From: Minisyncoccia bacterium
GTDB lineage: Bacteria > Patescibacteriota > Minisyncoccia > Phycocordibacterales > UBA918
Direction: 5' to 3'
Assembly (NCBI GenBank): GCA_041736805.1
Contig: JBGSSW010000007.1
Location: 1-62,426, forward strand
DNA: 62,426 bases
The position numbers were made by a program, and so were the translations under genes. The notes under the pieces are model-generated. The model was not told the DNA's origin. It did not search any database and saw only the letters and a program-made list of their open reading frames with translations. This document shows positions 40,362 through 62,426 of this stretch, one piece after another (position 1 is the stretch's first letter; the number at the start of each line of letters is the position of its first letter).

Positions 40362-40477
40362 ATTGCTGCTTATGATACCACTTATGTAACTAGCTTAAGT
40401 TAAAGGGAGTTACTTGCTTTTTTCAGTAATTTATGCTATAATAAAAAAGTAAATCAACCCGTTCTTTAGGAGAACCC

Positions 40478-43836: not shown

Positions 43837-43852
43837 GTGGTTGAGAGGGGGG

Positions 43853-43885
43853 AAAAGAGGGGCGGCCGTAGGCCGCCCCTCTTTT
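43853..43885. repeat. GC-rich palindromic hairpin, copy 1 (terminator-like)
   Basis: aaaagaggggcggcc-gta-ggccgcccctctttt. The 25-nt core gaggggcggccgtaggccgcccctc is identical to 44931-44955. Confidence 0.85.
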
Positions 43886-43911
43886 TAGCTTGGTGTTATA
43901 ATGTGTTTACT

Positions 43912-48755: not shown

Positions 48756-51281
48756 ATGTCATTCCTAGATAAATTCTTTGGTCCTACCTATGAAAAAGAG
48801 CTTAAAACTGTAGCTCCAGTTGTGGTTGCTATCAACGCACTTGAGGAGACTTACGCCAGCTTTTCAGCCGCAGGGATTATCGAAAAGACTACTGAGTTAA
48901 AAGGACGTATTTCTAAGGGTGAGACTCTAGATGATGTTTTGCCAGAGGCCTTTGCCCTTACTCGTGAGGCTGCCAAGCGTACTCTTGGCTTGAGACACTA
49001 TGATGTGCAATTGATTGGCGGTATTATTCTCCATCGTGGAAATATTACTGAGATGAGAACAGGGGAAGGAAAGACTTTGGTAGGTACCTTACCAGCCTAC
49101 TTAAATGCCTTAACTGGTAAAGGAGTTCATGTTGTAACAGTCAACGACTACTTGTCCAGACGTGATGCCGTGTGGATGGGTCAAATTTATGCTGCTCTTG
49201 GTTTATCTATTGGTGTCATCAATCACGATGCTTCTTTTTTATATGATGCCAATCACCAAGAGGCTGATGCCTTGCGAGATGAAGTTGGTTCTTACAAGGT
49301 GGTTTATGATTTCCTTCGTCCTTGTACTCGCAAAGAAGCTTATGAAGCCGACATTACTTACGGTACTAACAGTGAATTTGGCTTTGATTTCTTGCGCGAC
49401 AATATCGAATACGAAGCTGAACACTTAAGACAGCGAGGACACAATTACGCCATTGTCGACGAAATTGACTCTATCTTAATAGACGAAGCGCGTACCCCGT
49501 TAATTATTTCCGCTCCCGCCAATGATTCAGAAAATCTCTATGGAGTTTTTGCTGAGATTGCCAATAACCTAAAACCAGAAGAACACTATAATATTGATGA
49601 AAAATTAAAGAGCGCCACTCTAACAGACGCTGGAATTGAAGCCGCAGAGAAAATGCTTGGAATAGATAATATTTATACTGATAAAGGGATTAAGTATGTA
49701 CACCATCTAGAGACGGCTGTTAGAGCCAAGGCACTTTTTACTAAAGATAAAGAGTACGTAGTTCGTGATAATGAAGTGGTTATTGTGGATGAATTTACTG
49801 GGCGTTTACAACCGGGACGTCGCTGGTCTGATGGTCTTCACCAAGCGGTAGAGGCCAAAGAAGGAGTTTCTATTCAGCGTGAATCCAAGACTTTTGCTTC
49901 AATTACTTATCAGAATTATTTCCGTATGTATACGAAGTTATCAGGTATGACAGGGACGGCTCTCACCTCACAGGAGGAGTTTTTTACTGTCTACAAGCTA
50001 GAAGTAATCCCGATTCCAACCAATCGCAGTATTGCCAGGACAGACCATACTGACCTTATTTATCAAAACGAACCCGGCAAGTTTAAAGCCATCATCTCCA
50101 AGGTAAAGGAGGTCCATGCTAAAGGTCAACCAATCCTAATTGGGACTGCTTCAATTGAATCAAACGAAAGACTTTCAACTGCCCTAAATCAGGCCGGAGT
50201 ACCACACGAAATGTTGAACGCCAAAAATCATGAACGGGAAGGAGAAATTATTGCTGCCGCAGGACGGGTTGCCGCTGTCACTTTAGCCACCAACATGGCT
50301 GGTCGTGGTGTAGACATCAAACTGGGAGGTCCAGAAGCTACCAAGGAGCAATCTGAGGCGGTAAAGGCCTTGGGAGGTCTATTTGTGCTTGGTACAGAGC
50401 GACATGAGGCCAGACGTATAGATAATCAGCTCCGAGGTCGTTCAGGCCGTCAGGGAGACTCTGGAGAGACACAGTTTTATGTTTCCATGGAAGATAGTCT
50501 GATGCGAGTCTTTGGTGGGGAACGGGTCAAGAACTTAATGGGGACCTTTGGTATCCCAGAAGACCAACCAATCGAAATGAAAATGTTGGCCAACACCCTC
50601 GAAAGCGCACAGACAAGAATCGAAGGATTTCACTTTGATTCCAGAAAACAAATTTTGGCTTATGATGATATTTTGAATCAACAACGTATGGCAGTCTATG
50701 CTCGTAGACACAAATTACTTGTTCACGATGAAAAGGAAATAAACACCATTCTAGATGAAGTTAGGGGAGTTAGTGAAGAGGTGTCTAGTTCTATTGATAG
50801 CAAAATCGCCGAATTAGGTGAGTCAGCTTTTCTAGATTTATTCCGTAAGATGTCTTTACAGATGATTGATACTCTTTGGGTTGAACATCTTGAAGTAATG
50901 TCTTATACCCGCTCAAGTGTAAACCTCCGCGCTTATGGTCAGCGAGACCCATTGGTTGAGTACCGTAAGGAAGGTACTAGACTCTTCAAAGAAATGCAGG
51001 AAGTTATTTTGTGGCGGATTGGTGAACTTATTCCAAAACTTCAGACAGTCTTAGTTGAAAGAGAAGAAGCCTTAATGAAAAAAATTACCGAAGAGGCTCA
51101 AGCTGCAGCTGGGGAAACAGAGGGAAGTAAAGGTTCAAATCAACCGGCCCAAAACAAACAAGTTTACGGACGCAATGATTTTGTTACTATTACTGACGGC
51201 AAGGTCACCGATACGGTAAAATACAAAAAAGCTGAAGCTTTGCTAGCTACTGGTTCGTGGAAAATTGTTACTAAGTCTTAA
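48756..51281 (+). CDS. secA: Preprotein translocase ATPase SecA
   Basis: MSFLDKFFG.., MRTGEGKTLV, DEIDSILIDEARTPLIIS and LRGRSGRQGD motifs. Confidence 0.93.
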   Translation: MSFLDKFFGPTYEKELKTVAPVVVAINALEETYASFSAAGIIEKTTELKGRISKGETLDDVLPEAFALTREAAKRTLGLRHYDVQLIGGIILHRGNITEMRTGEGKTLVGTLPAYLNALTGKGVHVVTVNDYLSRRDAVWMGQIYAALGLSIGVINHDASFLYDANHQEADALRDEVGSYKVVYDFLRPCTRKEAYEADITYGTNSEFGFDFLRDNIEYEAEHLRQRGHNYAIVDEIDSILIDEARTPLIISAPANDSENLYGVFAEIANNLKPEEHYNIDEKLKSATLTDAGIEAAEKMLGIDNIYTDKGIKYVHHLETAVRAKALFTKDKEYVVRDNEVVIVDEFTGRLQPGRRWSDGLHQAVEAKEGVSIQRESKTFASITYQNYFRMYTKLSGMTGTALTSQEEFFTVYKLEVIPIPTNRSIARTDHTDLIYQNEPGKFKAIISKVKEVHAKGQPILIGTASIESNERLSTALNQAGVPHEMLNAKNHEREGEIIAAAGRVAAVTLATNMAGRGVDIKLGGPEATKEQSEAVKALGGLFVLGTERHEARRIDNQLRGRSGRQGDSGETQFYVSMEDSLMRVFGGERVKNLMGTFGIPEDQPIEMKMLANTLESAQTRIEGFHFDSRKQILAYDDILNQQRMAVYARRHKLLVHDEKEINTILDEVRGVSEEVSSSIDSKIAELGESAFLDLFRKMSLQMIDTLWVEHLEVMSYTRSSVNLRAYGQRDPLVEYRKEGTRLFKEMQEVILWRIGELIPKLQTVLVEREEALMKKITEEAQAAAGETEGSKGSNQPAQNKQVYGRNDFVTITDGKVTDTVKYKKAEALLATGSWKIVTKS

Positions 51282-51291
51282 CCCAAATAAT

Positions 51292-51627
51292 ATGAAGTTA
51301 ATCACTCGTTTACTACTGGTAGCTCTTGTCCTTCTGGTGGTAGCAGAATTTATTCCCGGGATAACGGTAGATGGATTTTACCCAGCTCTAATTGCCTCTA
51401 TTACTATCGGACTACTCAACCTATTCGTTAAACCGATAATTTTTATCCTAACTTTACCTATCAATATCCTCACTTTAGGACTATTCACCTTTGTCATTAA
51501 TGCTTCATTATTCTGGTTTGCGGGCACCTTTATCCAAGGCTTTTCAGTAGCCAGCTTCTGGTATGCGCTACTGGGTTCAATTATAGTCTCGGCTGTCAGT
51601 TCACTAGCTATAAAACACATCAAGTAA
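51292..51627 (+). CDS. DUF360 / phage-holin-4_2 family membrane protein
   Basis: 111 aa with 4 TM helices. The FVKPIIFILTLPINILTLGLFTFVINA segment is typical of PF04020. Confidence 0.7.
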   Translation: MKLITRLLLVALVLLVVAEFIPGITVDGFYPALIASITIGLLNLFVKPIIFILTLPINILTLGLFTFVINASLFWFAGTFIQGFSVASFWYALLGSIIVSAVSSLAIKHIK

Positions 51628-52930: not shown

Positions 52931-54364
52931 ATGAGCAAAATCTACAAAACTACCATTGGACTTGAGGTTCACGCCGAACTAAAGACAAAAAGTAAGATGT
53001 TTTGTGGGTGCAAAAATGATCCGCATGAAGGCGAACCCAACTCATATATTTGTCCGGTTTGTTTAGCACACCCTGGGTCACTTCCAGTTCCAAATGAAGA
53101 GGCAATTGCCATGGTCCTACTTTTTGGAGAAGCAGTAAATGCTAAACGAGCCACCTATTCTGAGTTCGATAGAAAGAATTATTTCTATCCCGATATCCCA
53201 AAAGCCTATCAGATTAGTCAGTACGCTTTTCCATTTTTAACTGGTGGAAATCTCAAAGGAGTGGAGCTAACACGAGTCCACCTAGAAGAAGATACCGCTA
53301 GAAGTCAGCACGAGCATGACGGTGTCAGTTTGGTAGATTTTAATCGAGCGGGGGTGCCACTGATGGAACTAGTTACCGAACCGGTAATTCATGACGCTAA
53401 GACAGCCGGAGACTTTGCTCGGGAACTTCAACTTTTACTACAGACTTTAGACATTTCTAATGCTCAAATGGAAAGGGGAGAAATGAGAGTCGAAGCCAAT
53501 ATATCTGTCAGTAGTACCAATGAACTAGGTACAAAAGTTGAGGTCAAGAACCTAAATTCCTTCAAGTCGGTAGAGAGTGCCATTGCTTACGAAGTAGAGA
53601 GGCAAATCACTTTGATTGAGCGGGGGGAGACTATAGCTCAAGAAACCAGAGGTTGGGACGAGGTCAAATTACGTACTTACTCACAACGCTCAAAGGAGAC
53701 CGCGAAAGACTACCGATACTTTCCAGACCCAGATATTCCAAAGATAAATACGGAAACTTACCAATACTTCTCTAAGACTCGTCTATCCGAGATAATTCCT
53801 GAATTACCTAATAATAAAAGACTAAAATACGAAAATATCGGCATACCGGGTAATCAGTCTGAATTGATAATAGCTACTAAAGCCCTTGATGGGTACTTCA
53901 CTTTCTTGTTTGAAAAATTTTCTGAAAGTAATGTGACCGTCTTGAAGTTGTCAGCCAATTATTTAACTTCAGATGTTCTGGCCGAGCTGGCCGGAGAAGA
54001 GAATCTGGTACCAACTTTGTCAAATGAGAATTTCGCTGAATTAATATTGATGGTAAGTGAAGCGAAGATTAATTCTCGTGTGGCTAAAGACCTACTAAAG
54101 GAGCTTTTATTTGCTGACGACAGCCCTTTGGCTATAGCTAAAGAGAGAGGCCTGCTGCAGTCTTCAGATCCAGCCGCCTTGCTTGCTGTAGTAACTGAGT
54201 TAATTAGTGAGAATACAACAGTTGTCACCGAATACTTTGGCGGCAAGGAAGCTTCATTACAATTTTTGGTCGGACAGGGGATGAAGAAGACGCGCGGGAC
54301 AGCCAACCCAACTGTACTTTTGGAGGTCATAAAGGATGAGTTAGCTAAGACGAGAAAAGTTTAA
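52931..54364 (+). CDS. gatB: Asp/Glu-tRNA(Asn/Gln) amidotransferase subunit B
   Basis: IGLEVHAELKTKSKMFCGC, LEEDTA and VEVKNLNSF motifs. Confidence 0.92.
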   Translation: MSKIYKTTIGLEVHAELKTKSKMFCGCKNDPHEGEPNSYICPVCLAHPGSLPVPNEEAIAMVLLFGEAVNAKRATYSEFDRKNYFYPDIPKAYQISQYAFPFLTGGNLKGVELTRVHLEEDTARSQHEHDGVSLVDFNRAGVPLMELVTEPVIHDAKTAGDFARELQLLLQTLDISNAQMERGEMRVEANISVSSTNELGTKVEVKNLNSFKSVESAIAYEVERQITLIERGETIAQETRGWDEVKLRTYSQRSKETAKDYRYFPDPDIPKINTETYQYFSKTRLSEIIPELPNNKRLKYENIGIPGNQSELIIATKALDGYFTFLFEKFSESNVTVLKLSANYLTSDVLAELAGEENLVPTLSNENFAELILMVSEAKINSRVAKDLLKELLFADDSPLAIAKERGLLQSSDPAALLAVVTELISENTTVVTEYFGGKEASLQFLVGQGMKKTRGTANPTVLLEVIKDELAKTRKV

Positions 54365-54428
54365 TTTATATACACATATCGGCTACTTTAAGACTTGCCT
54401 GTAGCGAGAGTCTGCTATAATGGTGGTA

Positions 54429-55355
54429 ATGAAAGAGGTAACTATCAATGGAGTTGAATATCAGCCAGCCTCTCTTTTGGCTAAGCAGTTTAGATATACT
54501 ACCGATTACATTGGTCAGCTTTGTCGCTCTAAAAAAGTAGAGGCACAACTAGTAGGGCGTAGCTGGTATGTTAATCCAGCCTCTCTTACCAATCACAAAA
54601 AAGGTCGTTATGTAAAATCTCCTTTAGGCGAGAAAACATCAGATTATACTTACGAAGTAAAGTTATCTCGTCTAGACGTGGAACCTGTGATATCAAAAAA
54701 CTCAGTCAAAATGTCTAGTGAAGTAGCGATAAACAAAAACTTTTCTAAGCGAATGGATTGGAAACCTCTTAAGTACGAAGTCGATGCAGCTGATTTGCTG
54801 CCGCAATTTCAGATTAATTCTAATCCAAGCAAAATTAAGGTTGATTTGGCTGACTCAATTGAACTATCGATTAAAGAAACTTCGAAACCAACCGTCTTAG
54901 AAGCTGAAGAATTACCGACGGTTTCACTAAAGGGTAAGCTAAAAGTAGCTTCTCTAGAGCAGGATTTTGATGCCAAAGAGGAGGTTTTATTAGAAGAAGT
55001 GCCTTTACCGCCCCTACCAAGACCCGTTAGAGTTGCTAAAAAGCCAATTCACTTAAGTCTGCCGACTAGAATGTCGGTAAAAAGAGTCGAGGAGGAGAAA
55101 AATTACAATAAATCTTCACCCCAGGTAGTATCAGCTTCTCTTTTTGTACCTAAAAGTGTTTTGAAAAATGAAGTTGAAGAGGAGAATGGAATTGAGTTTG
55201 TTCAAGTCTCTTTAATTACTACTACAGGCTTACTGCTAGTGTGTCTACTTTTAATATTTTTTGCTGAGAGTAATATCTACGCCGATGCTTCTTCATACAC
55301 TTGGGGGATAGATTTTTCGACAAGGTCTTTGACGGCTTTAGTGTCTCTTTTTTAA
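54429..55355 (+). CDS. Membrane-anchored HTH protein (excisionase/MerR-like N-terminal HTH, C-terminal TM helix), paralog 1
   Basis: INGVEYQPASLLAKQFRYTTDYIGQLCRSKKVEAQLVGRSWYV, and a TM helix LITTTGLLLVCLLLIFF. TGcTATAAT (54413-54421) overlaps the track's ATG 54420, so ATG 54429 is preferred. Confidence 0.65.
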   Translation: MKEVTINGVEYQPASLLAKQFRYTTDYIGQLCRSKKVEAQLVGRSWYVNPASLTNHKKGRYVKSPLGEKTSDYTYEVKLSRLDVEPVISKNSVKMSSEVAINKNFSKRMDWKPLKYEVDAADLLPQFQINSNPSKIKVDLADSIELSIKETSKPTVLEAEELPTVSLKGKLKVASLEQDFDAKEEVLLEEVPLPPLPRPVRVAKKPIHLSLPTRMSVKRVEEEKNYNKSSPQVVSASLFVPKSVLKNEVEEENGIEFVQVSLITTTGLLLVCLLLIFFAESNIYADASSYTWGIDFSTRSLTALVSLF

Positions 55356-55394
55356 CTTAAGTTATCAACATTAATTCTCTGCTGATATGGCCGT

Positions 55395-55418
55395 TTTAGC
55401 TTTATAATTAAAGCTAAA
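55395..55418. promoter_or_regulatory. 9-bp inverted repeat centred on a TATAAT box (candidate operator/promoter)
   Basis: tttagcttt-ataatt-aaagctaaa. TATAAT at 55403-55408 lies 15 nt upstream of ATG 55424. Confidence 0.4.
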
Positions 55419-55423
55419 GCAGT

Positions 55424-56248
55424 ATGTCGACACAAATTGAAATTAACGGTAAAACCCTCCTTCCTATCAAAGAGGCGGCGAAACTAGTTTCCTACACCAA
55501 AGACTATGTTGCCCGTCTGGCCCGTGAACAAAAAATTGTCGCTTCACAAGTGGGGCGACAGTGGTTTGTCGATTTGGTCTCACTCAAGAATTTTGCTGAA
55601 GTATCACAGCTAGAGCTTTCAGTTCGTAAACAGATACTTAGTCAAGAAAGAAAAAAGGAGCAGTCGGTTAAACAGGCTTTGAGTGAGGTTCATCAGTCAA
55701 CGCATAATAAGTTTCGGAGAGTAAAAATCCAAGCCCAGTTAGCGGCGGTGTTTGTCCTCGGATTTGGTTTATTGGCCGGAGCTAGTATTTATACCACTAG
55801 CTTATTTTTTCCAATTCAGTCATCTAGCTTGGCGCGCATTGGGGCCACTAGTCCAGAAATGTTTTTAAATAAAAATTACCATAGTCAGGAAATAGCTACT
55901 CCAACCGGAGTGGTGAATGAAGTGAATGATTATAAAATCGCTGAACCACAAACCACTACGCTTTATAATTCGGTTTTAGAGTACCCACTTTTTACTGATG
56001 AAGCTGAGACAAGAGCAATGTCACTAGGAAATTCTGAAGGTATTTTCTTACTGGCTCGCAATGGTGAAGTGAGAAGTGTTGAGGAAGTAGAAGGATTATT
56101 TTCTGATGAAGTAGTAGTAAGTTTTTCTGATGAAAGTAATGGCGTGATTACTTTTACGAAAGAGGAAGGGGAAGTAGTTGAATTTCCGTTTGTGTCGGTG
56201 CCGGTAAAGGAGACTGATAATAAAGGTTTTTCTGACCAGACTGAATAA
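55424..56248 (+). CDS. Membrane-anchored HTH protein, paralog 2 (central TM helix)
   Basis: INGKTLLPIKEAAKLVSYTKDYVARLAREQKIVASQVGRQWFV aligns with the paralog-1 HTH. TM helix LAAVFVLGFGLLAGASIY. Confidence 0.65.
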   Translation: MSTQIEINGKTLLPIKEAAKLVSYTKDYVARLAREQKIVASQVGRQWFVDLVSLKNFAEVSQLELSVRKQILSQERKKEQSVKQALSEVHQSTHNKFRRVKIQAQLAAVFVLGFGLLAGASIYTTSLFFPIQSSSLARIGATSPEMFLNKNYHSQEIATPTGVVNEVNDYKIAEPQTTTLYNSVLEYPLFTDEAETRAMSLGNSEGIFLLARNGEVRSVEEVEGLFSDEVVVSFSDESNGVITFTKEEGEVVEFPFVSVPVKETDNKGFSDQTE

Positions 56249-56253
56249 TTTTT

Positions 56254-59200
56254 ATGATTACTAGTTCTCACAACCATTTCCGAAATACTCTAGTTGCTAC
56301 TTTGGTAGCAGCGTTGGCGGTGGTGTTATTTAGTATTCCTCTCTCTGGCTTGGCCGCGGCCAACCCGCAAATCAACTACCAAGGTAAACTAACTAACGCT
56401 TTGGGAGTAGCAGTACCAGACGGAACCTACAACATGAATTTTTGGCTGGTCGCTTCCGGTACCGCTGCCACCTCAACTGCCGTCTGGGCCGAGACTCTAA
56501 TTGGTGGAAACCGGGTGCAAGTTACCAACGGACTTTTTTCAGTTATGCTTGGTTCGACGACAGCTTTGACAGGAGTTGATTTTAATCAGACGCTTTTCTT
56601 GGGAGTTGAGATTGGTGGTACTTCGACACCAGTGTGGGATGGGGAAATGAGTCCACGTAAAATCCTTGGTACCGTGCCGGCCGCTTTTGTCGCCAATTAT
56701 GCTGCCACGGCTGGAGCAGCAAGTAGCTCAGATTCTTCGACTCTACTTGGCGGCGTCGCTTCATCTTCTTTCCTTCGCTCTGACGCCGCTGACACCATGG
56801 AAGCCACCAGTTCTTCACCACTTCTGACTCTCATCCAAAATGGAGTGGGAGCGGTCGCTCGTTTCTTTAGTGGGGTCACTGAAGTCTTCACGATTTTGAA
56901 TAATGGCAACGTCGGAGTGGGTACTAGTACACCAGGCTATAAACTGTCAGTGGTGGGCGATGCTCGTATCACCGGTACTAGTACTTTGGCTACCACTACA
57001 ATTTCCAATCTTAATCTCGGTACTGCTCTCTCGGCAGTAAATGGTGGTACTGGACTTTCTTCAGTCACTCAAAATCAACTTTTAATTGGCGGAGCTGGAA
57101 ATACTTGGTCGCAAATTGGTACTTCTTCTTTAGGACTTGGCAATAATACTTTCCTAGGTCTTTCTGATACTCAAGCTTCCTTTACCGCCAATCGCCTAGT
57201 CTTTACCAACAGTGGAGCGACCGCACTGACCGACTCATCAAGCCTAGTCTTTGACGGCACCAACTTCGGTCTTGGTAGTAGCACCCCTTCTTCTCGCCTC
57301 ACAATCCAAGGTGCCGCCGGCGGAGCCGATGTACTAAAGATTGCTTCCTCAACCGGCAGCACCACCCTCGCGATGCTGGCAAATGGCAACCTAGAGCTTC
57401 CTGGACAGCTGATATCGACGGGAATAAATTGGACTGCTAGAACAGCGGCTTCGTCGACTGTTGTCTATACCTCCGTCACCTACGGCAATGGCACTTTCGT
57501 CGCGGTGGGAATTGGCTACGCCATGTATTCTGCCGATGGTATCAATTGGGCGACAAGTACGATTCCGGAAGCCAACAGCTGGCAATCCGTCACCTACGGT
57601 AATGGTTTGTTTGTGGCGGTAGGGAGCAGCGGCACCAACCGCGTCATGACTTCACCTGACGGTATCACTTGGACTGCCCGCTCCGCTGCTGAAGCCACCA
57701 GTTGGACCTCCGTCACCTACGGCAATGGTCTCTTTGTGGCGGTAGCAATCGGCGGTACCAACCGGGTCATGACTTCACCAGATGGTATCACTTGGACCGC
57801 GCGCTCAGCGGCTGAAGCCAATCAATGGTACTCTGTCACCTACGGTAATGGTCTCTATGTCGCTGTTTCAATCGACGGTACTAACCGGGTCATGACCTCA
57901 CCAGACGGCAGCACTTGGACCGCGCGCTCTGCCTCCGAAGCCAACTTATGGTACTCCGTCACCTACGGCAATGGTCTCTATGTGGCTGTCTCATATGACG
58001 GCACCAACCGCGTCATGACCTCACCAGACGGCAGCACTTGGACCGCGCGCTCTGCCGCCGAAGCCAACCAATGGCAATCAGTCACCTACGGCAATGGTCT
58101 GTTTGTGGCTGTTGGCGGAGGCTGTAGTACTGCTTGCGTCATGACCTCACCAGATGGTATCACTTGGACGGCCCGTACAGCTTCTGTAAACAATTCTTGG
58201 TCCTCCGTCACCTACGGTAATGGTCTCTATGTGGCTGTCAGTTATTTTGGTTTTGGAGAAGATCTTATCATGACCTCTCCTGACGGTATTACTTGGACTG
58301 TCCACACAGCTACTGGGGACAATATATGGCGTTCCGTCACCTACGGTAACGGCACATTTGTGGCAGTGTCAGCAGACGGCACCAACCGCGTCATGACAAG
58401 TAAAGATAATACTTTGGTTTTTTCTAGTACTTCAGCACAGACTATCAGTGGCAACCTAACGGGTTCGTCACAGCTAAGAAAGGTTATCTTTAGTGGGTCT
58501 GGCAGTAAGACTTTTGCCAGCAGTTCAGCTTCCACAACTGATTTCAGTATTATCAGTACTAGCAGTACCGTCGTAGCGCCAAGTAATCTAGAGATTAGAG
58601 GTAACTACAGCAATGATGGTACTTTCATAGCCGGAAGTGGTACTACTACTTTTAATGGTTCTAGCTTACAAACTCTAACCGGTAATTTAAACAATAATTC
58701 AGTCAGCACTTCTTCTTTCAGTAATATTGTCTTTACCGGTGGGGGAGACAAAAAGCCGCTGGCTCCACTACAAGCGACTGGTAACTTCATCATTTCTACT
58801 TCCACTTTTCTCGCTTCTTCCACGCTAACGATAGGTGGTAACTTCACCCAAAATGGTACGTTCCAGATTGCTGCGACTTCTTCGAGTGCGTGGACCGCGC
58901 AGTCTGCCACCGAAGCCAACGCCTGGCAATCCGTCACCTACGGCAATGGTCTTTTCGTCGCTGTCTCAAGCGACGGCACCAACCGCGTCATGACTTCACC
59001 CGAGGGCAGCACTTGGACCGCACGCAGTGCAGCAGAAAATAATTATTGGACCTCCGTCACCTACGGCAATGCTCTCTATGTAGCTGTTTCAGCTGACGGC
59101 ACCAACCGCGTAATGACCTCCCCCGATGGTGTTACTTGGACCGCTAGGTCGGCGGCACAAAACAATTCTTGGTCCTCCGTCACCTACGGCAACGGTCTGT

Positions 59201-62200
59201 TTGTGGCTGTCTCATATGACGGCACCAACCGAGTTATGACTTCACCTGATGGCATCACTTGGACCGCTCGCTCTGCCTCTGAAGCCAACTACTGGTACTC
59301 TGTCACCTACGGTAATGGTCTCTTCGTCGCGGTCTCAGGAGACGGCACCAACCGCGCCATGACTTCTCCTGACGGCATCACTTGGACCGCGCGCAGTGCC
59401 GCGCAAGCCAACACCTGGCGTTCCGTCACCTACGGTAATGGTCTCTTTGTGGCGGTGTCAATTTATGACGATGGTTATTCTGTTGTTATGACTTCATCCG
59501 ATGGTATAAATTGGACCACTCGCTTGGCCGCTGAAGCGAACTCTTGGACCTCCGTCACCTACGGCAATGGCTTATTTGTAGCGATAGCAGAGGATGGAAC
59601 CAATCGCGTCATGACCTCGGGAGATGGTATTACCTGGACCGCACGCGCGGCAGCTGAAGACAATTATTGGTCCTCAGTCACCTATGGCAATGGTTTGTTT
59701 GTGGCTGTCTCATATGACGGCACCAACCAGGTCATGACCTCCTCTGAACTATCATCTGTATCTTTAAACGGCACCACCACCCAAACTCTCTCTGGTACCA
59801 TGGTCGCTACTTCCACTCTACCAAACGTAGTTTTCAGTGGAGCGGGCACTAAGACCTTCAATAGCAACGCCTCAACTACTGCTGTAACTATAGCTACTTC
59901 TTCTGGAGTAGTGACTGCTCCGACAAGGATGACTATAAATGGTGATTTAACTAACAAAAGTACTTTTATTGCTAGTAGCGATATTTATTTAAATGGTAAT
60001 TATATAAACACCGGTATTTTCACTGCTCCAACCAACCTATATCTGACTGGAGCCAGCCAATCTGCTACTGGAACGATGACCGGAAGTAGTGCATTCAATA
60101 ACCTCACTCTCTCTGGTAACGGTAACAAGACTTTATATAATGATGCGTCCATTAGTAACTTAACTATCGGGAGTGGAGTAAACTTTAGTGCCCCAAGTGA
60201 ACTTTCTGTGACTGGTAACTATACTAATAACGGAACAAGTACTAACATAGGTGCTGTATGGAATTCTTATTCAGCATCAATAGCTGGGGACTGGAACGCT
60301 GTCACCTACGGCAATGGTCTCTATGTGGCGGTGGGGTTTGACAATGATTTGTCATTGGGTCGCATTTCAACTTCTTCAGACGGCATTAATTGGACCGGGG
60401 GTACTTCTGTCGTTAATAGACAATGGTCTTCTATCACCTACGGCAATGGTCTCTATGTGGCGGTTTGCTCTGATAATGATAATTATGATGGTGATTGTGA
60501 CGTGGTAATGACTTCTTCGGACGGTATTACTTGGGCAACTAGCTCTGCTTCAGAAACTGCTCCTTGGCGCGCTGTCACCTACGGCAATGGTTTGTTTGTC
60601 GCAGTGGCAGTCTCAGGCACCAATCGCGTCATGACTTCACCGGATGGTATCACTTGGACGGCTCGCTCCGCCGTGGGCAATGATGATAATTGGACCTCGG
60701 TCACCTACGGCAATGGTCTCTATGTGGCGGTCAGTAGATTTGGCGACCGTGTCATGACTTCACCAGATGGCACCACTTGGACGGCTCGCTCGGCCGCTGG
60801 TGATGATGACTTTTGGAATTCCGTCACCTACGGCAATGGTCTGTTTGTAGCGGTCAGTGAATTCTATGCTAACGATATAGTTATGACCTCCCCTGACGGT
60901 ATTAATTGGACGCCTCGCAGTGTAGTTTCTAGTGCTGATGTTTGGTTATCCGTCACCTACGGCAATGGTCTCTATGTGGCGGTAGCAGAGAGTGGCACTA
61001 ACCGCGTCATGACCTCACCAGATGGTGTTTACTGGATTTATCAGTCAATTTCTGAAAATGATAATCAATGGTTATCCGTCACCTATGGCAATGATCTGTT
61101 TGTGGCCGTCTCAAATAACGGTACTAACCGTATCAAAGTGTCTCCAGTCTCTACCACCACCTTCTCCGGCGCTTCATCACAGACTGTGAGTGGAACATTA
61201 AGTGGGGCTAGTGCTTTCGGTAATGTCGCTTTCACTGGTGCTGGTACCAAAACCTTCAACAACTTAGCCTCTACTTCTAATTTATACCTAAACACTACCG
61301 CCACCACTACCTTCACCCAAGCCCTCTCAGTGTCAGGTAATCTAACTGCCGAAGCCAACGCTAAACTTGCTCTTGCTGAAAGTGCTACCACTACCGTTAG
61401 AGGTAACTTAAATCTCTTAGGTACCAGTACCGCTCCAGTCCTCTTGGTCTCTGAAACAGAAGGTCAAAAAGCTAACTTTGTGCTACTTGGTTCTTCCACT
61501 GTGTCATACACCACCATCAAAGACTCTAATGCTTGCGGTAGTACTGGAGGGCCTATCAATGTCTTTGGTGGTAACAACACCGACGGAGGTAACAACACCT
61601 GTTGGACCTTCACTGCTCCACCAGGCGACTTCACCGTCACTGGTATCTTATACGAAGCCGACCGCCTCACTCCGTACGCCACCTCTACCACCATCAAAAT
61701 AGCTGTCGCTACTTCATCTATCGCTACTTCAACCGTCAGTACATACAGCACCACCACAATCGCTAGTACCGGCGCCTTCTCCTTTGATATCACAGTCGGA
61801 GCGGTAGCGACGGGTACTCCAATCACCATCTTCACTGATGGTAGTGCGGTTATCAAAGCGGTGACTGTCACGAAGACTAGTGGTACTAGTACGCTCTCTA
61901 ACCTACCTTTATATAAAAACCACGTCCTGGTCACCAATCAAGGGACTGGTACCACTACTAAAGCTTCCGACCTCATCCGCTTTGACAGTACCAAAGACTC
62001 TGACATAGAGTTCACCGCTTCTTCTACTTTAGGTAGACTCACCGTCAACTCTGGACAAACCCTCCTCGTGGCTTCAGGGACTACTTTCCAAAACGACTAT
62101 CCAACCTATACTCATACCCTTGAGATAGCGACTACCTCTACTATGCTCGCGTCTTCGACGCTCGCCCTCACAGGTAACTACCAAAACAACGGTACCTTCC

Positions 62201-62426
62201 TGACCAACAATGCTTCTTCGAGTGCGTGGACCGCGCGCTCCGCCTCCGAAGCCAACAGCTGGATCTCCGTCACCTACGGCAATGGTCTGTTTGTCGCTGT
62301 CTCAAGTAACGGCACCAACCGCGTCATGACTTCACCAGACGGCAGCACTTGGACCGCTCGCGCCGCCGCTGAAGCCAACACCTGGCAATCCGTCACCTAC
62401 GGCAATGGTCTGTTTGTCGCTGTCTC
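56254..62426 (+). CDS. Giant surface protein (partial, more than 2,057 aa; 3' end beyond the window): signal/anchor, tail-fibre-like region, at least 4 Asp-box beta-propeller modules with T/S/N-rich linkers
   Basis: I read the frame starting at 56254 codon by codon to 62426 and found no stop. N-terminal LVATLVAALAVVLFSIPLSGLAAA. 24 copies of W-x-S-V-T-Y-G-N-G-L-[FY]-V-A-V...T-S-P-D-G-x-T-W. It is absent from the ORF track only because it is unterminated. Confidence 0.85.
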   Translation, partial: MITSSHNHFRNTLVATLVAALAVVLFSIPLSGLAAANPQINYQGKLTNALGVAVPDGTYNMNFWLVASGTAATSTAVWAETLIGGNRVQVTNGLFSVMLGSTTALTGVDFNQTLFLGVEIGGTSTPVWDGEMSPRKILGTVPAAFVANYAATAGAASSSDSSTLLGGVASSSFLRSDAADTMEATSSSPLLTLIQNGVGAVARFFSGVTEVFTILNNGNVGVGTSTPGYKLSVVGDARITGTSTLATTTISNLNLGTALSAVNGGTGLSSVTQNQLLIGGAGNTWSQIGTSSLGLGNNTFLGLSDTQASFTANRLVFTNSGATALTDSSSLVFDGTNFGLGSSTPSSRLTIQGAAGGADVLKIASSTGSTTLAMLANGNLELPGQLISTGINWTARTAASSTVVYTSVTYGNGTFVAVGIGYAMYSADGINWATSTIPEANSWQSVTYGNGLFVAVGSSGTNRVMTSPDGITWTARSAAEATSWTSVTYGNGLFVAVAIGGTNRVMTSPDGITWTARSAAEANQWYSVTYGNGLYVAVSIDGTNRVMTSPDGSTWTARSASEANLWYSVTYGNGLYVAVSYDGTNRVMTSPDGSTWTARSAAEANQWQSVTYGNGLFVAVGGGCSTACVMTSPDGITWTARTASVNNSWSSVTYGNGLYVAVSYFGFGEDLIMTSPDGITWTVHTATGDNIWRSVTYGNGTFVAVSADGTNRVMTSKDNTLVFSSTSAQTISGNLTGSSQLRKVIFSGSGSKTFASSSASTTDFSIISTSSTVVAPSNLEIRGNYSNDGTFIAGSGTTTFNGSSLQTLTGNLNNNSVSTSSFSNIVFTGGGDKKPLAPLQATGNFIISTSTFLASSTLTIGGNFTQNGTFQIAATSSSAWTAQSATEANAWQSVTYGNGLFVAVSSDGTNRVMTSPEGSTWTARSAAENNYWTSVTYGNALYVAVSADGTNRVMTSPDGVTWTARSAAQNNSWSSVTYGNGLFVAVSYDGTNRVMTSPDGITWTARSASEANYWYSVTYGNGLFVAVSGDGTNRAMTSPDGITWTARSAAQANTWRSVTYGNGLFVAVSIYDDGYSVVMTSSDGINWTTRLAAEANSWTSVTYGNGLFVAIAEDGTNRVMTSGDGITWTARAAAEDNYWSSVTYGNGLFVAVSYDGTNQVMTSSELSSVSLNGTTTQTLSGTMVATSTLPNVVFSGAGTKTFNSNASTTAVTIATSSGVVTAPTRMTINGDLTNKSTFIASSDIYLNGNYINTGIFTAPTNLYLTGASQSATGTMTGSSAFNNLTLSGNGNKTLYNDASISNLTIGSGVNFSAPSELSVTGNYTNNGTSTNIGAVWNSYSASIAGDWNAVTYGNGLYVAVGFDNDLSLGRISTSSDGINWTGGTSVVNRQWSSITYGNGLYVAVCSDNDNYDGDCDVVMTSSDGITWATSSASETAPWRAVTYGNGLFVAVAVSGTNRVMTSPDGITWTARSAVGNDDNWTSVTYGNGLYVAVSRFGDRVMTSPDGTTWTARSAAGDDDFWNSVTYGNGLFVAVSEFYANDIVMTSPDGINWTPRSVVSSADVWLSVTYGNGLYVAVAESGTNRVMTSPDGVYWIYQSISENDNQWLSVTYGNDLFVAVSNNGTNRIKVSPVSTTTFSGASSQTVSGTLSGASAFGNVAFTGAGTKTFNNLASTSNLYLNTTATTTFTQALSVSGNLTAEANAKLALAESATTTVRGNLNLLGTSTAPVLLVSETEGQKANFVLLGSSTVSYTTIKDSNACGSTGGPINVFGGNNTDGGNNTCWTFTAPPGDFTVTGILYEADRLTPYATSTTIKIAVATSSIATSTVSTYSTTTIASTGAFSFDITVGAVATGTPITIFTDGSAVIKAVTVTKTSGTSTLSNLPLYKNHVLVTNQGTGTTTKASDLIRFDSTKDSDIEFTASSTLGRLTVNSGQTLLVASGTTFQNDYPTYTHTLEIATTSTMLASSTLALTGNYQNNGTFLTNNASSSAWTARSASEANSWISVTYGNGLFVAVSSNGTNRVMTSPDGSTWTARAAAEANTWQSVTYGNGLFVAV
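57421..58401 (+). repeat. Propeller module 1: 8 tandem 41-aa (~123-nt) Asp-box blades
   Basis: VTYGNG anchors near 57478, 57591, 57714, 57838, 57961, 58084, 58210 and 58339. Confidence 0.85.
58888..59745 (+). repeat. Propeller module 2: 7 blades
   Basis: VTYGN[GA] anchors near 58936, 59059, 59182, 59305, 59431, 59560 and 59680. Confidence 0.85.
60259..61135 (+). repeat. Propeller module 3: 7 blades (more diverged, with loop insertions)
   Basis: [VI]TYGN[GD] anchors near 60304, 60436, 60580, 60703, 60826, 60955 and 61081. Confidence 0.8.
62221..62426 (+). repeat. Propeller module 4: first 2 blades, continues past the window
   Basis: Anchors near 62272 and 62395. The entry segment is identical to that of module 2. 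Confidence 0.8.

What the first reader, a model, noticed from the sequence alone, without database searches (positions are those of the whole stretch)
56254..62426. Giant unterminated surface-protein gene, missing from the ORF track, built from at least four tandem Asp-box beta-propellers
The frame opening at ATG 56254 starts 6 nt after the preceding stop. I read every codon to the window end and found no stop, giving more than 2,057 codons. The track lists only short antisense ORFs here, presumably because the real ORF has no stop inside the window.

Architecture:
- A hydrophobic signal/anchor.
- An INYQGKL...PRKILGTVPAAFVA domain.
- Tail-fibre-like GNVGVGTSTPGYKLSVVG segments.
- Blocks of 8, 7, 7 and at least 2 copies of a 41-aa unit: W-x-S-V-T-Y-G-N-G-L-[FY]-V-A-V-S-x-D-G-T-N-R-V-M-T-S-P-D-G-x-T-W-T-A-R-S-A-x-E-A-N.

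The S-P-D-G-x-T-W part matches the Asp-box/BNR signature S-x-D-x-G-x-T-W. Seven or eight units per block is the blade count of a closed propeller.

The gene is visibly GC-richer than the rest of the window. For a CPR cell, presumably an episymbiont, a string of propellers on a stalk is a plausible host-attachment or glycan-binding organelle. I do not recognise this exact repeat as a named family.
Basis: partly seen in the sequence, partly recalled or inferred. Interest (0 to 1): 0.85.

Follow-up and report, generated by a model that had tools for sequence, protein, structure and literature searches.

The report
Giant propeller-studded surface fibre gene
A real gene of more than 2,057 codons, cut off by the contig end, in a Patescibacteria (CPR) genome encodes a secreted fibre carrying at least four copies of a very common beta-propeller also found in phage tail proteins; it probably grips other cells, and it is a typical member of a large uncharacterised family, not a new kind of protein.

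Summary
- ATG 56254 opens a 2,057-codon frame with no stop to the window end.
- Repeat blocks of 8, 7, 7 and at least 2 units are present.
- GC is elevated in the gene.

**What it is.**
- One 7-unit block models confidently (pLDDT 94.7) as a closed 7-bladed propeller with velcro closure.
- The motif S-P-D-G-x-T-W is the short Asp-box, not the canonical S-x-D-x-G-x-T-W.
- The closest solved fold is Ycf48.

**The repeat is not unnamed or rare.**
- Pfam EPTP and DUF6242 both score above their cutoffs.
- 15,938 representative clusters match at E ≤ 1e-30.
- The same propeller sits in Bacteroidota T9SS giants, giant-virus fibres and at least 491 viral-contig stretches. Non-propeller segments of sampled viral carriers hit PHROG tail, tail-fibre or minor-tail families.

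**Gene family and context.**
- The gene belongs to a Patescibacteria-specific fibre family: signal peptide, then a conserved N-terminal head with no Pfam or PDB match.
- It is chromosomally syntenic in two relatives, whose copies are 2,498 and 3,236 aa.
- Two HTH–transmembrane genes precede it, an arrangement conserved in 42 of 71 species loci.

**Reading.** It is most likely a modular surface adhesin built from swappable, phage-type binding propellers. It is a new member of a known kind. The 3' end could not be recovered.

The parts
54420..55355 (+). Upstream gene A, 311 aa. It has an N-terminal excisionase-like HTH motif and a C-terminal transmembrane segment (about aa 263-292).
   Evidence: Translation. 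The motif scan finds the same type of ORF upstream of head-bearing giant genes in 42 of 71 Patescibacteria species loci. Syntenic in L002 and L003. No Pfam hit at E ≤ 0.1.
55424..56248 (+). Upstream gene B, 274 aa. It has an N-terminal HTH_17-like domain, a transmembrane segment (about aa 104-130) and an extracytoplasmic C-terminal domain. Its stop is 6 nt before the giant gene's ATG.
   Evidence: Translation. Pfam HTH_17 at E = 9.6e-5, 23 bits, below the cutoff of 27; one ortholog reaches 30 bits. An HTH-motif ORF lies within 150 nt upstream in 20 of 71 loci. No terminator-like site between B and the giant gene.
56254..56361 (+). Signal-peptide-like N-terminus, aa 1-36. It has a basic n-region, a hydrophobic core TLVATLVAALAVVLFSIPL, and a predicted A-x-A cleavage site (…LAAA|NPQ).
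   Evidence: Read from the sequence. Orthologs have the same Ala-rich site just before the conserved N[PQ][QE]INYQG. No signal-peptide predictor was available, so this is inferred.
56362..56676 (+). Conserved N-terminal 'head' domain, aa 37-141 (NPQINYQGKL…PRKILGTVPAAF). It is a compact all-beta domain that defines a Patescibacteria-specific family.
   Evidence: AF2 model m35400fce27ab has pLDDT above 90 over residues 1-105. No significant PDB fold match: best E = 0.036, TM at most 0.44. No PDB sequence match. 177 homologs; every named one is a Patescibacteria-group hypothetical protein, and none has a Pfam domain. Found in 161 species genomes.
56677..57420 (+). Ser/Thr/Gly/Ala-rich fibre-like region, aa 142-389, with two G-[VL]-G-[TS]-S-[TS]-P motifs (aa 221 and 339).
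   Evidence: Motif positions. 71% identical to P0003 and P0010. No Pfam or PHROG match. Its fibrous nature is inferred.
57424..58404 (+). Propeller 1, aa 391-717. It has an N-terminal velcro strand (INWTAR), 8 units, and a last unit truncated after strand 3. Inferred to be 8-bladed.
   Evidence: Unit map. Colinear with P0003 and P0010 to about aa 670. The 8-blade closure is inferred by analogy with block 2 and was not modelled.
58405..58887 (+). Linker 1, aa 718-878. It has repeated F-[ST]-G-x-G-x-K-T-F and G-N-[FY]-x-N-x-G-T-F motifs and is probably a beta-strand-repeat spacer.
   Evidence: Motif counts. Homologous spacers occur in P0007, P0102, P0036 and P0101. No Pfam or PHROG hit.
58888..59742 (+). 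Propeller 2, aa 879-1163. It is a closed 7-bladed beta-propeller with 1+3 velcro closure and one short Asp-box per complete blade.
   Evidence: AF2 with alignment A1 gives pLDDT 94.7 and pTM 0.92. The model has 29 strands: 6 complete four-stranded blades, plus a seventh made of 3 strands and the N-terminal strand. Foldseek against PDB: Ycf48, TM 0.70. Foldseek against BFVD: phage and giant-virus proteins, TM 0.91-0.96 at 40-56% identity.
59743..60255 (+). Linker 2, aa 1164-1334, the same motif type as linker 1.
60256..61143 (+). Propeller 3, aa 1335-1630. It has 7 units and is the most divergent block, with long insertions in loop 2-3.
   Evidence: 60% identical to block 2 in alignment A1.
61144..62223 (+). 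Long spacer, aa 1631-1990. It has beta-strand repeats and a Cys-containing segment (…KDSNACGSTGGPINVFGGNNTDGGNNTCW…).
   Evidence: Translation. Homologous segments occur in P0036, P0032, P0026, P0082 and P0007. No family hit.
62224..62426 (+). Start of propeller 4, aa 1991-2057: the velcro strand, one complete unit, and part of a second. It is cut by the end of the window.
   Evidence: The contig ends inside the repeat. The Logan contig likewise ends just before propeller 1, and many species contigs end within a few kb of the start of such genes.

Best explanation
The gene encodes a Sec-exported, giant modular cell-surface fibre of a Patescibacteria (Paceibacteria-type) cell.

**Layout**
- After the signal peptide comes a lineage-specific, highly conserved 'head' domain.
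- Next comes a Ser/Thr/Gly-rich fibre segment.
- Then at least four rigid 7- or 8-bladed short-Asp-box beta-propellers are strung on beta-strand-repeat spacers.
- The missing C-terminus is probably 450-1,200 aa more, judging from the 2,498- and 3,236-aa orthologs. In those orthologs the protein ends in a conserved Cys-containing module and a long Pro/Glu-rich acidic tail.

**Proposed mechanism**
- The propellers are the working parts. Each is a closed disc whose bottom face (the GNG turn and the s-Asp-box hairpin) is nearly invariant and structural.
- The top face (loop 2-3, loop 4-1 and the residue after the blade's Trp) carries nearly all substitutions and all indels. This is the usual ligand-binding face of Asp-box propellers.
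- The same propeller is used by phages in tail, tail-fibre and minor-tail proteins, by giant viruses on collagen-like fibres, and by Bacteroidota in T9SS-secreted giants.
- It is therefore most likely a portable module for binding cell-surface ligands (glycan or protein).
- In an epibiotic CPR cell, several such modules on one stalk would give multivalent, possibly multi-specific, attachment to a host or substrate.
- The number of propellers is swapped rapidly between otherwise syntenic orthologs.

**Shown**
- The ORF and its repeat architecture.
- A high-confidence predicted 7-blade fold for block 2.
- Family distribution, synteny and the phage tail context.

**Inferred**
- Export and surface location.
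- The binding function and the ligand.
- The 8-blade state of block 1.
- The nature of the C-terminus.
For: **ORF and architecture**
-.

**Propeller fold**
- The 7-blade model has pLDDT 94.7 and pTM 0.92.
- Ycf48 is the best PDB match, at TM 0.70. The block profile also matches Ycf48 by sequence at E = 0.008.
- The s-Asp-box is present in 19 of 20 units. All indels fall in loop 2-3, and variation is confined to top-face elements. Quistgaard & Thirup (PMC2716378) state that the top face is the variable, functional one.

**Use in viruses**
- Viral structural twins reach TM 0.91-0.96 at 40-56% identity. They include a phage protein with an intramolecular-chaperone domain and a Hokovirus collagen-repeat protein.
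- At least 491 viral-contig stretches encode the propeller.
- Six of 8 non-propeller segments from sampled viral carriers hit PHROG tail-category families, including phrog_376 'tail protein' at E = 3.5e-51.

**Use in bacteria**
- Single blocks are up to 75% identical to blocks in Bacteroidota proteins, including P0092, which carries a T9SS sorting domain.

**Chromosomal, not phage, context**
- The order Wzy/TPR, MurB, SecA, small membrane protein, Obg, GatB, HTH-TM A, HTH-TM B, giant gene is conserved in L002 and L003.
- The rest of the window is envelope biogenesis, with no phage structural genes.

**Modular evolution**
- Orthologs are colinear only over aa 1-670 and carry 4, 2 and at least 4 propellers.

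**Family membership**
- The head domain occurs in 161 species genomes, nearly all labelled Patescibacteria.
- 31 complete ORFs range from 461 to 3,367 aa, and most of the longer ones listed end in Pro/Glu/Thr-rich tails.

**Literature**
- Very large proteins of Patescibacteria are preferentially surface-targeted and are proposed host-recognition candidates (PMC13059738).
Against: - No experiment or proteomic evidence exists for expression, export or surface display.
- The signal peptide was judged by eye.
- No anchoring device was identified. The orthologs' C-termini have no hydrophobic anchor or LPXTG.
- The C-terminus of this gene is missing and could not be recovered.
- No member of this propeller family has a demonstrated ligand.
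- The nearest solved relative, Ycf48, binds a protein partner inside the cell envelope and is not an adhesin.
- Only 4 of 76 head-bearing ORFs in species genomes carry propellers, so propellers are optional for whatever the fibre family does.
- Only the first 1.1 kb of the gene is confirmed by an independent assembly.
Confidence: 0.65

Rival explanations
1. Contact-sensing apparatus rather than a passive adhesin. In this reading the fibre's conserved head docks on the extracytoplasmic domain of the adjacent HTH-TM protein or proteins. Ligand binding by the propellers is relayed across the membrane to the cytoplasmic HTH domains, which regulate transcription. This would resemble a ToxR-like membrane-tethered regulator with a giant antenna.
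For: - Two HTH-TM genes lie immediately upstream on the same strand. The second ends 6 nt before the giant ATG, with no terminator-like site between them.
- The arrangement is conserved in 42 of 71 species loci, while the motif occurs in only 77 of 1,488 ORFs in those loci.
- In P0107 the same HTH motif is fused to the N-terminus of a propeller-bearing giant protein.
- There is a loose analogy with EsrA: a surface filament with a terminal propeller, thought to sense epibionts and feed a signalling cascade in Actinobacteria (PMC13622651).
Against: - The HTH assignment is weak. Pfam HTH_17 gives 23 bits for the window protein against a cutoff of 27, and nothing for gene A.
- No DNA-binding or interaction evidence exists.
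- The association could equally reflect anchoring, assembly or simple co-regulation.
- This reading is not exclusive of adhesion.
Confidence: 0.15
2. Phage-derived element. The gene would be a prophage, phage-tail-like-particle or eCIS tail fibre, not a cellular surface protein.
For: - The propeller is abundant in viral contigs and in proteins with PHROG tail annotations.
- A Parcubacteria relative, P0107, carries Peptidase_S74 and is named a tail fiber domain-containing protein.
- eCIS fibres combining beta-propeller lectins with collagen shafts have been described (PMC12923769).
Against: - The gene has a Sec-type signal peptide.
- It sits in conserved synteny with SecA, Obg, GatB and MurB in three genomes.
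- The window contains no phage, sheath, baseplate or capsid genes.
- PHROGs gives no hit to the non-propeller parts.
- The orthologs lack Peptidase_S74.
Confidence: 0.05
3. Enzyme. The propellers would be catalytic Asp-box glycosidase domains (sialidase or GH74-like) that degrade host envelope polysaccharide.
For: - Most characterised Asp-box propellers are glycosidases (PMC2716378).
- One BFVD match at rank 41 is named beta-1,4-xyloglucan hydrolase.
Against: - The blades are near-identical copies of one 41-aa unit. That leaves no differentiated active-site constellation.
- No glycoside-hydrolase, BNR or sialidase Pfam hit was found at E ≤ 1.
- The best structural match is the non-catalytic Ycf48, followed by designed symmetric, Kelch and WD40 propellers.
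Confidence: 0.05
4. Partly an assembly artefact. The ORF is real, but the order or number of propellers in 57.4-62.4 kb is mis-assembled (collapsed, expanded or chimeric), because short reads cannot resolve 123-nt repeats.
For: - The contig ends inside propeller 4.
- An independent short-read assembly breaks just before propeller 1.
- 45 of 76 head-bearing ORFs in species loci run to the end of the contig or the fetched locus.
- No second assembly covers the region beyond 57345.
Against: - No exact repeat of 50 nt or more exists in the gene, and units differ by about 5-49% over their first 60 nt.
- The frame stays open through all junctions.
- Each block has proper velcro start and end features.
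- Orthologs on contigs of 135-271 kb show the same multi-propeller design.
Confidence: 0.07

Closest known systems
Ycf48 / HCF136, photosystem II assembly factor (PDB 5OJR, 2XBG, 8AM5)
   Same: A 7-bladed propeller with Asp-box-type hairpins in loop 3-4. It is the best PDB fold match (TM 0.70, E = 1e-11). It is also the only PDB sequence matched by the block profile at E < 0.1 (E = 0.008).
   Different: - Only about 15% identical.
- Ycf48 is a single-domain lipoprotein of oxygenic phototrophs with differentiated blades and canonical 8-residue boxes (S-Q-D-G-G-Q-T-W in the aligned stretch).
- Here the blades are near-identical, the box is the 7-residue short form, and the propeller is reiterated in a giant secreted protein.
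Asp-box (BNR) and short Asp-box propellers, as defined by Quistgaard & Thirup 2009 (PMC2716378)
   Same: - The hairpin motif lies between strands 3 and 4.
- The bottom face is conserved and the top face variable.
- The sequence fits the s-Asp-box S/t-x-D/n-x-x-x-W/f/y in 19 of 20 units.
   Different: - No unit has the canonical S-x-D-x-G-x-T-W, and Pfam BNR does not match.
- Classical Asp-box propellers are irregular and often catalytic. This one is highly regular and shows no enzyme signature.
Pfam EPTP (PF03736), the EAR/epitempin repeat of metazoan LGI1 and ADGRV1
   Same: - The whole-protein score is 121.8 bits against a cutoff of 21.
- Most relatives carry a precomputed PF03736 hit.
- Both form 7-bladed propellers of roughly 40-45-aa repeats.
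   Different: - The score is a sum of many weak per-repeat matches.
- No LGI1 chain is matched by the block profile in PDB at E ≤ 10, and none appears in the Foldseek top 50.
- The context is a prokaryotic giant fibre, not an LRR-EPTP synaptic ligand.
DUF6242 (PF19755), for example Bacteroides thetaiotaomicron Bt3727, which co-purifies with BamA (bioRxiv 10.1101/2025.01.31.636011)
   Same: - The score is 48.7 bits against a cutoff of 29.
- Viral twins of the propeller are named DUF6242 proteins in UniProt.
   Different: - Only the C-terminal part of the 217-position profile (about 124-217) is matched.
- DUF6242 proteins are smaller Bacteroidia lipoproteins, and their function is also unknown.
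Phage tail, tail-fibre and minor-tail proteins and giant-virus fibre proteins carrying the same propeller (BFVD A0A6J7WX40, A0A1V0SF56, M1PQ47; IMG/VR loci L084-L163)
   Same: The same propeller at 40-80% identity and TM up to 0.96, attached to fibrous shafts (collagen-like or tail-fibre N-termini).
   Different: - Viral carriers are smaller (median 786 aa) and usually have a single propeller.
- They lack the CPR head, the signal peptide and the HTH-TM partners.
Bacteroidota T9SS-secreted multi-propeller giants (for example P0092; also the Saprospiraceae HYR-domain protein P0067)
   Same: Tandem copies of the same propeller, with blocks up to 75% identical, in secreted proteins of 2,000-3,500 aa.
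   Different: - P0092 and several other Bacteroidota relatives are exported and anchored through a C-terminal Por_Secre_tail.
- Their companion domains differ (fn3, CHB_HEX_C, Reelin subrepeat, MBG, HYR).
- They have no CPR head.
Giant surface proteins of Patescibacteria proposed as host-recognition factors (PMC13059738)
   Same: Proteins over 1,500 aa, with a signal peptide or TM segment and adhesion-type domains, in an epibiotic lineage.
   Different: - Those described carry fn3, Ca-stabilised adhesin repeats, fibrinogen C, ConA and integrin domains.
- The head plus short-Asp-box propeller design and the HTH-TM cassette were not found described in the papers searched.

Membership tests
Canonical Asp-box / BNR propeller | Repeated 8-residue motif S-x-D-x-G-x-T-W | tested here: not met
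   None of the 20 complete units matches [ST]x[DN]xGx[TS][WFY]. The definition comes from PMC2716378.
Canonical Asp-box / BNR propeller | Match to Pfam BNR (PF02012) or related sialidase-clan models | tested here: not met
   hmmscan of the whole protein at E ≤ 1 returns only EPTP, DUF6242 and a chance Pox_A28 hit.
Canonical Asp-box / BNR propeller | Motif forms the hairpin between the outer strands 3 and 4 of each four-stranded blade | tested here: met
   In model m8edbadf7105f, S-P-[DE]-G-x-T-W lies between strand 3 (RVMT, for example E41-44) and strand 4 (WTA, E51-53) in every complete blade.
Short Asp-box (s-Asp-box) propeller | 7-residue motif S/t-x-D/n-x-x-x-W/f/y | tested here: met
   19 of 20 units match. 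The exception has Glu in place of Asp (SPEGSTW).
Short Asp-box (s-Asp-box) propeller | Type 7:7 hairpin geometry with a conserved water and side-chain network | not testable with these tools
   Model coordinates cannot be inspected here. Only DSSP strings are returned.
Asp-box propellers in general | Bottom face (loops 1-2 and 3-4) conserved; top face (loop 2-3) variable | tested here: met
   The per-column entropy of the 20 units shows the GNG turn and the s-Asp-box as nearly invariant. All indels and most variation lie in loop 2-3, loop 4-1 and position 2.
Pfam EPTP (PF03736) / EAR repeat | Whole-protein score at or above Pfam's gathering cutoff | tested here: met
   121.8 bits against a cutoff of 21, E = 1.1e-35. 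Only 2 stretches pass on their own.
Pfam EPTP (PF03736) / EAR repeat | Detectable relationship to the founding LGI1-type EPTP propellers | tested here: inconclusive
   The block profile finds no LGI1 chain in PDB at E ≤ 10. No LGI1 entry appears in the Foldseek top 50. That LGI1 EPTP structures are in the PDB rests on my own knowledge.
DUF6242 (PF19755) | Whole-protein score at or above the cutoff, covering the profile | tested here: inconclusive
   48.7 bits against a cutoff of 29. The best stretch covers only profile positions 124-217 of 217.
Ycf48 / HCF136 (PSII_BNR) | 7-bladed propeller fold | tested here: met
   TM 0.69-0.71 to 5OJR and 2XBG over about 310 columns.
Ycf48 / HCF136 (PSII_BNR) | Family-level sequence similarity and a phototroph lipoprotein context | tested here: not met
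   Only E = 0.008 with a profile, at 15% identity. No PSII_BNR Pfam hit. The organism is a Patescibacteria bacterium.
Tail-fibre / endosialidase-type proteins with an intramolecular chaperone (Peptidase_S74) | C-terminal Peptidase_S74 auto-processing domain | not testable with these tools
   The C-terminus lies outside the window. The syntenic orthologs P0003 and P0010 lack it. The more distant P0107, P0039, P0029 and P0064 have it.
Patescibacteria head-bearing fibre family (defined here) | Signal peptide followed directly by the N[PQ][QE]INYQG… head domain | tested here: met
   Window aa 37-171 is 63-84% identical to the six other members of alignment A3. The head was found in 161 species genomes.
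Patescibacteria head-bearing fibre family (defined here) | Pair of HTH-TM genes immediately upstream on the same strand | tested here: met
   Window 54420-55355 and 55424-56248. Present in 42 of 71 loci.
Patescibacteria head-bearing fibre family (defined here) | Conserved C-terminal Cys-containing module plus a Pro/Glu-rich acidic tail | not testable with these tools
   Seen in P0003, P0010, P0090, P0057 and P0049, and in most of the longer complete ORFs listed. The window ends before this point.
Sortase-anchored (LPXTG) or T9SS-sorted adhesins | C-terminal LPXTG with a hydrophobic anchor, or a Por_Secre_tail | not testable with these tools
   The C-terminus is missing. The orthologs' C-termini end in acidic Pro/Glu tails with no hydrophobic segment. 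Por_Secre_tail is present only in Bacteroidota relatives.

The most novel reading that the evidence does not exclude
The giant gene and the two HTH-transmembrane genes upstream may form a Patescibacteria-specific three-gene surface organelle that I did not find described.
- In this reading the conserved head docks the fibre onto the membrane HTH-TM proteins.
- Phage-type short-Asp-box propellers are exchanged horizontally as plug-in specificity modules. The higher GC3 of propellers 1 and 2 and up to 75% identity to Bacteroidota blocks are consistent with that.
- Contact with a host surface is relayed to the cytoplasmic HTH domains.
- Epibiotic CPR cells and phages would then be drawing on one shared pool of receptor-binding domains to recognise bacterial surfaces.
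Probability: 0.2. Interest if true: 0.7.

Novelty: new member of a known kind. Interest (0 to 1): 0.45.

Why it matters
**The gene as a candidate**
- How ultrasmall CPR/Patescibacteria cells recognise and hold on to their hosts is largely unknown outside a few cultivated Saccharibacteria.
- This gene is a concrete, well-delimited candidate for that role.

**Leads that go beyond this one gene**
1. The propeller is one of the commonest uncharacterised modules in prokaryotic and viral surface proteins. About 16,000 representative clusters match at E ≤ 1e-30. It is shared between CPR fibres, Bacteroidota secreted giants, phage tail proteins and giant-virus fibres. Finding a ligand for one member would inform thousands.
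2. The conserved head plus HTH-TM cassette defines a testable Patescibacteria-wide unit.

**Practical point**
- These genes systematically break short-read assemblies.
- They are therefore under-represented or fragmented in MAG annotation.

Tried and rejected
**Attempts to recover the 3' end or a second assembly**
- Exact DNA scans with a 50-mer (62081-62130) in genome contigs and metagenome contigs found nothing.
- A 36-mer from linker 2 in metagenome contigs also found nothing.
- Looking up the upstream neighbour gave only a 4.1-kb Logan contig, which stops before propeller 1.

**Family and structure searches that gave nothing useful**
- NCBIfam: no hit.
- PHROGs on the head and fibre region, both linkers and the long spacer: no hit. 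On the propeller it gave only weak families of unknown function.
- phmmer of the whole protein against PDB: nothing.
- The head profile against PDB sequences gave only a chance baseplate hit at E = 0.35.
- The head model against PDB folds gave only generic beta-sandwiches, with E at least 0.036.

**Ideas considered and rejected**
- Recent horizontal transfer as the main cause of the high GC. Most of the excess is GC2, from the Thr/Ser/Gly/Ala-rich composition, and the orthologs share it. A residual GC3 excess in propellers 1 and 2 remains unexplained.
- A Peptidase_S74 tail-fibre C-terminus for this lineage. The orthologs show no similarity to the S74 region of P0107.
- A prophage context. The neighbours are housekeeping and envelope genes.

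**Other notes**
- Alignment A2 was a throwaway.
- One search failed on a missing file and was rerun.
- My first HTH regex had an off-by-one error and returned zero hits. It was corrected.
- Literature searches for EPTP in bacteria, for DUF6242, and for giant or tail-fibre-like proteins in Patescibacteria found no characterisation of this propeller or cassette.

Full report
**Observation**

The frame opening at ATG 56254 runs for 2,057 codons to the last base of the window without a stop. The start is unambiguous. An in-frame stop lies three codons upstream, and the ATG follows the stop of the preceding gene by 6 nt. From the gene's base composition, the chance of such an open frame is about 1e-39.

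The ORF listing does not report ORFs that run off the source. Its list of ORFs of at least 150 aa shows only one antisense ORF in this region, 61464-61937, which explains the 'missing' gene.

Anchoring on [VI]TYGN finds 24 units, mostly 41 aa apart, in blocks of 8, 7, 7 and at least 2. Tandem Repeats Finder sees the matching 123-nt and 246-nt periods at 72-84% identity. The gene is at 0.48-0.50 GC, against 0.34-0.45 elsewhere.

**Is it assembled correctly?**

Units are 51-95% identical at the DNA level over their first 60 nt, mostly 55-93%. No exact repeat of 50 nt or more exists within the gene, so this is not a simple collapsed array.

A Logan assembly of run SRR28170465 reproduces window 53198-57345 with no mismatch, but it ends just before propeller 1. 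The window itself ends inside propeller 4. In 45 of 76 related genes from species genomes, the ORF runs to the end of the contig or the fetched locus. These genes evidently break short-read assemblies.

Three exact-match scans of public collections did not find a second copy of the interior or of the 3' end. The block order beyond 57.3 kb therefore rests on one assembly. It is supported indirectly: the frame stays open, each block has proper start and end features, and orthologs on contigs of 135-271 kb share the design.

**The repeat block is a propeller**

I aligned block 2 (aa 872-1168) with block 3 and 24 homologous blocks (A1). AlphaFold2 gave a model with pLDDT 94.7 and pTM 0.92. It has 29 strands: six complete four-stranded blades, plus a seventh made of three C-terminal strands and the N-terminal 'W-T-A-Q' strand. 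That is a 7-bladed ring with 1+3 velcro closure.

Every block in the gene begins with such an extra strand and ends with a unit truncated after strand 3. By analogy, block 1, with 8 units, should be 8-bladed.

**Which kind of propeller**

Foldseek against the PDB puts Ycf48, the 7-bladed photosystem II assembly factor, first at TM 0.70 and 15% identity. Designed, Kelch and WD40 propellers follow. A profile of the block also finds only Ycf48 among PDB sequences at E < 0.1 (E = 0.008).

Quistgaard & Thirup (PMC2716378) define two forms:
- The Asp-box is S-x-D-x-G-x-T-W in the loop between strands 3 and 4.
- The shorter 's-Asp-box' is S/t-x-D/n-x-x-x-W/f/y.

They also describe a conserved bottom face and a variable, functional top face. 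In the window, none of the 20 complete units has the canonical box, and 19 of 20 have the short one (S-P-D-G-x-T-W). The motif sits between strands 3 and 4 of the model. All indels and most substitutions fall in loop 2-3, loop 4-1 and the residue after the blade's Trp.

Pfam BNR does not match.

**Is it a named family?**

- Pfam EPTP (PF03736) scores 121.8 bits against a cutoff of 21.
- DUF6242 (PF19755) scores 48.7 bits against a cutoff of 29.

The EPTP score is the sum of many weak per-repeat matches. I found no direct link to LGI1-type EPTP structures. I therefore treat the Pfam label as a catch-all, not as evidence of an LGI1-like function. DUF6242 is itself uncharacterised; its one mention concerns Bt3727, which co-purifies with Bacteroides BamA.

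The family is very large. An exhaustive profile search of 1.84 billion representatives finds 46,340 clusters at E ≤ 0.001 and 15,938 at E ≤ 1e-30. Some proteins carry up to 21 matched propeller stretches in about 7,000 aa.

Named relatives come from two groups:
- Patescibacteria, Parcubacteria and Saccharibacteria.
- Bacteroidota (Cyclobacteriaceae, Flavobacterium, Saprospiraceae), some of them with T9SS sorting domains.

Single blocks are up to 75% identical to Bacteroidota blocks.

**Viral connection**

Against predicted viral structures the model finds near-twins at TM 0.91-0.96 and 40-56% identity. They include:
- a Hokovirus collagen-repeat protein;
- an uncultured phage protein with an intramolecular-chaperone domain;
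- phage 'DUF6242' proteins.

IMG/VR contains at least 491 stretches encoding the propeller. The 63 complete viral ORFs have a median of 786 aa and usually one propeller. Six of 8 non-propeller segments, taken from six sampled carriers, hit PHROG families in the tail category, including tail protein (E = 3.5e-51), tail fibre, tail spike, minor tail and central tail fibre J.

**The gene family and its genomic setting**

Outside the propellers, the closest relatives, P0003 (3,236 aa) and P0010 (2,498 aa), share aa 1-670 colinearly at 68-70% identity and then diverge. They carry 4 and 2 propellers.

Both are syntenic with the window. The shared order is:
- Wzy/TPR
- MurB
- SecA
- a small membrane protein
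- Obg
- GatB
- two unknown genes
- the giant gene

In both relatives a second, unrelated giant gene of 3,544-3,830 aa follows. The rest of the window encodes Mur ligases, a PBP/L,D-transpeptidase, a polysaccharide cluster and similar genes, with no phage structural genes. This is a chromosomal gene, not a prophage tail fibre.

The N-terminus looks like a Sec signal peptide, with an Ala-rich cleavage site directly before an invariant N[PQ][QE]INYQG. This is my reading of the sequence; no predictor was available.

The following 'head' (aa 37-141) has these properties:
- It folds as a confident all-beta domain.
- It has no significant PDB relative by fold or by sequence.
- It has no Pfam family.
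- It has 177 homologs. Every one that carries a name is a Patescibacteria-group hypothetical protein, almost all marked partial.
- It is found in 161 species-level genomes, almost all labelled Patescibacteria.

Complete genes with this head are 461-3,367 aa long, and most of the longer ones listed end in Pro/Glu/Thr-rich tails. Only 4 of 76 carry propellers. The window gene thus belongs to a small propeller-bearing branch of a large CPR fibre family.

**A conserved partner pair**

The two genes upstream (311 and 274 aa) each start with an excisionase-like helix-turn-helix motif and contain one transmembrane segment. Pfam HTH_17 is just below its cutoff for the window copy and above it for one ortholog.

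The same arrangement precedes head-bearing giant genes in 42 of 71 species loci. The motif occurs in only 77 of 1,488 ORFs in those loci. In P0107 it is fused to the N-terminus of a propeller-bearing giant protein. I interpret these proteins as membrane partners of the fibre, for anchoring or signalling. That is an inference.

**GC content**

GC2 is 0.56 in the gene, against 0.33-0.40 in neighbours. This reflects a composition that is 49% Thr, Ser, Gly and Ala. The orthologs show the same excess over their flanks.

Propellers 1 and 2 do have a higher GC3 (0.56-0.59) than the linkers (0.32-0.38) and the neighbouring genes (0.29-0.44). That is compatible with recent acquisition or with gene conversion of the propeller cassettes, but it remains unexplained.

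**Interpretation**

The best-supported reading is a Sec-exported, modular surface fibre whose propellers are ligand-binding modules of the kind phages use for host recognition. They would give an epibiotic CPR cell multivalent attachment.

The function is inferred from three things: the architecture, the pattern of top-face variation, and the contexts in which the same module occurs. No member of this family has a demonstrated ligand.

Rival readings are listed with their tests:
- a contact sensor coupled to the HTH-TM proteins;
- a phage-derived fibre;
- a glycosidase;
- partial mis-assembly.

Very large surface-targeted proteins are already proposed in the literature as host-recognition candidates in Patescibacteria (PMC13059738). 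The finding is therefore a well-characterised new member of a known kind, not a new kind. The most novel element is the conserved head plus HTH-TM cassette, together with the sharing of a receptor-binding-type propeller between CPR cells and viruses.

Noticed in passing
window 54420-56248 (+); also L004-L083: Two paralogous genes precede the giant gene. Each has an N-terminal excisionase-like HTH motif and one transmembrane segment. The pair or a single copy precedes head-bearing giant genes in 42 of 71 Patescibacteria species loci, and the motif is fused to a giant propeller protein in P0107.
   Followed up: partly
L002 20094-29711 and L003 17514-27497: In both syntenic orthologs a second giant gene follows within 17-380 nt. 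The called products are 3,830 and 3,544 aa, with an N-terminal hydrophobic segment and sequences unrelated to the first gene and to each other at the N-terminus. The same probably lies beyond the window end.
   Followed up: partly
window 57424-59742 versus 58405-58887 and 59743-60255: Propellers 1 and 2 have GC3 of 0.56-0.59. The linkers between them have 0.38 and 0.32, and neighbouring genes have 0.29-0.44. This heterogeneity within one gene is unexplained; cassette acquisition or gene conversion are possibilities.
   Followed up: partly
window 1-209 and 2206-2280: The window opens with the last about 220 model positions of a bacterial 16S rRNA gene (+). No 23S gene follows. The only tRNA is tRNA-Ile(GAT), on the opposite strand about 2 kb away. 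The rRNA genes therefore appear unlinked.
   Followed up: no
window 24326-39428 (-): A low-GC block (0.34-0.37) of same-strand genes encodes a surface-polysaccharide cluster: GT2/PMT_2, an FkbM methyltransferase, an NAD-dependent epimerase/dehydratase of the GDP-mannose-dehydratase type, a Polysacc_synt flippase, and an NTP-transferase/APH fusion. Several ORFs have no Pfam hit.
   Followed up: partly
window 12216-15677 (+): A TrwB-like coupling-protein homolog (679 aa) is followed by a 472-aa protein with a Lamin Tail Domain and a PKD domain, another candidate surface protein.
   Followed up: no
window 43837-44814 (+): A 325-aa protein combines a RhuM virulence-family domain with a Fic/DOC domain.
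   Followed up: no
window 40466-41083, both strands: Two ORFs of about 200 aa overlap almost completely on opposite strands (40466-41080 minus, 40478-41083 plus). Which one is real was not resolved.
   Followed up: no
L012, L019, L045 (genome contigs): In three species genomes the head-bearing gene is interrupted by masked runs, which translate as X. In L012 and L019 the runs lie inside the propeller-coding part. Their propeller counts are therefore minimum values.
   Followed up: no
window 51265-51627 (+): A 120-aa multi-pass membrane protein lies between SecA and Obg and overlaps the SecA stop. It is the positional counterpart of the Phage_holin_4_2-family gene in L002 and L003.
   Followed up: no
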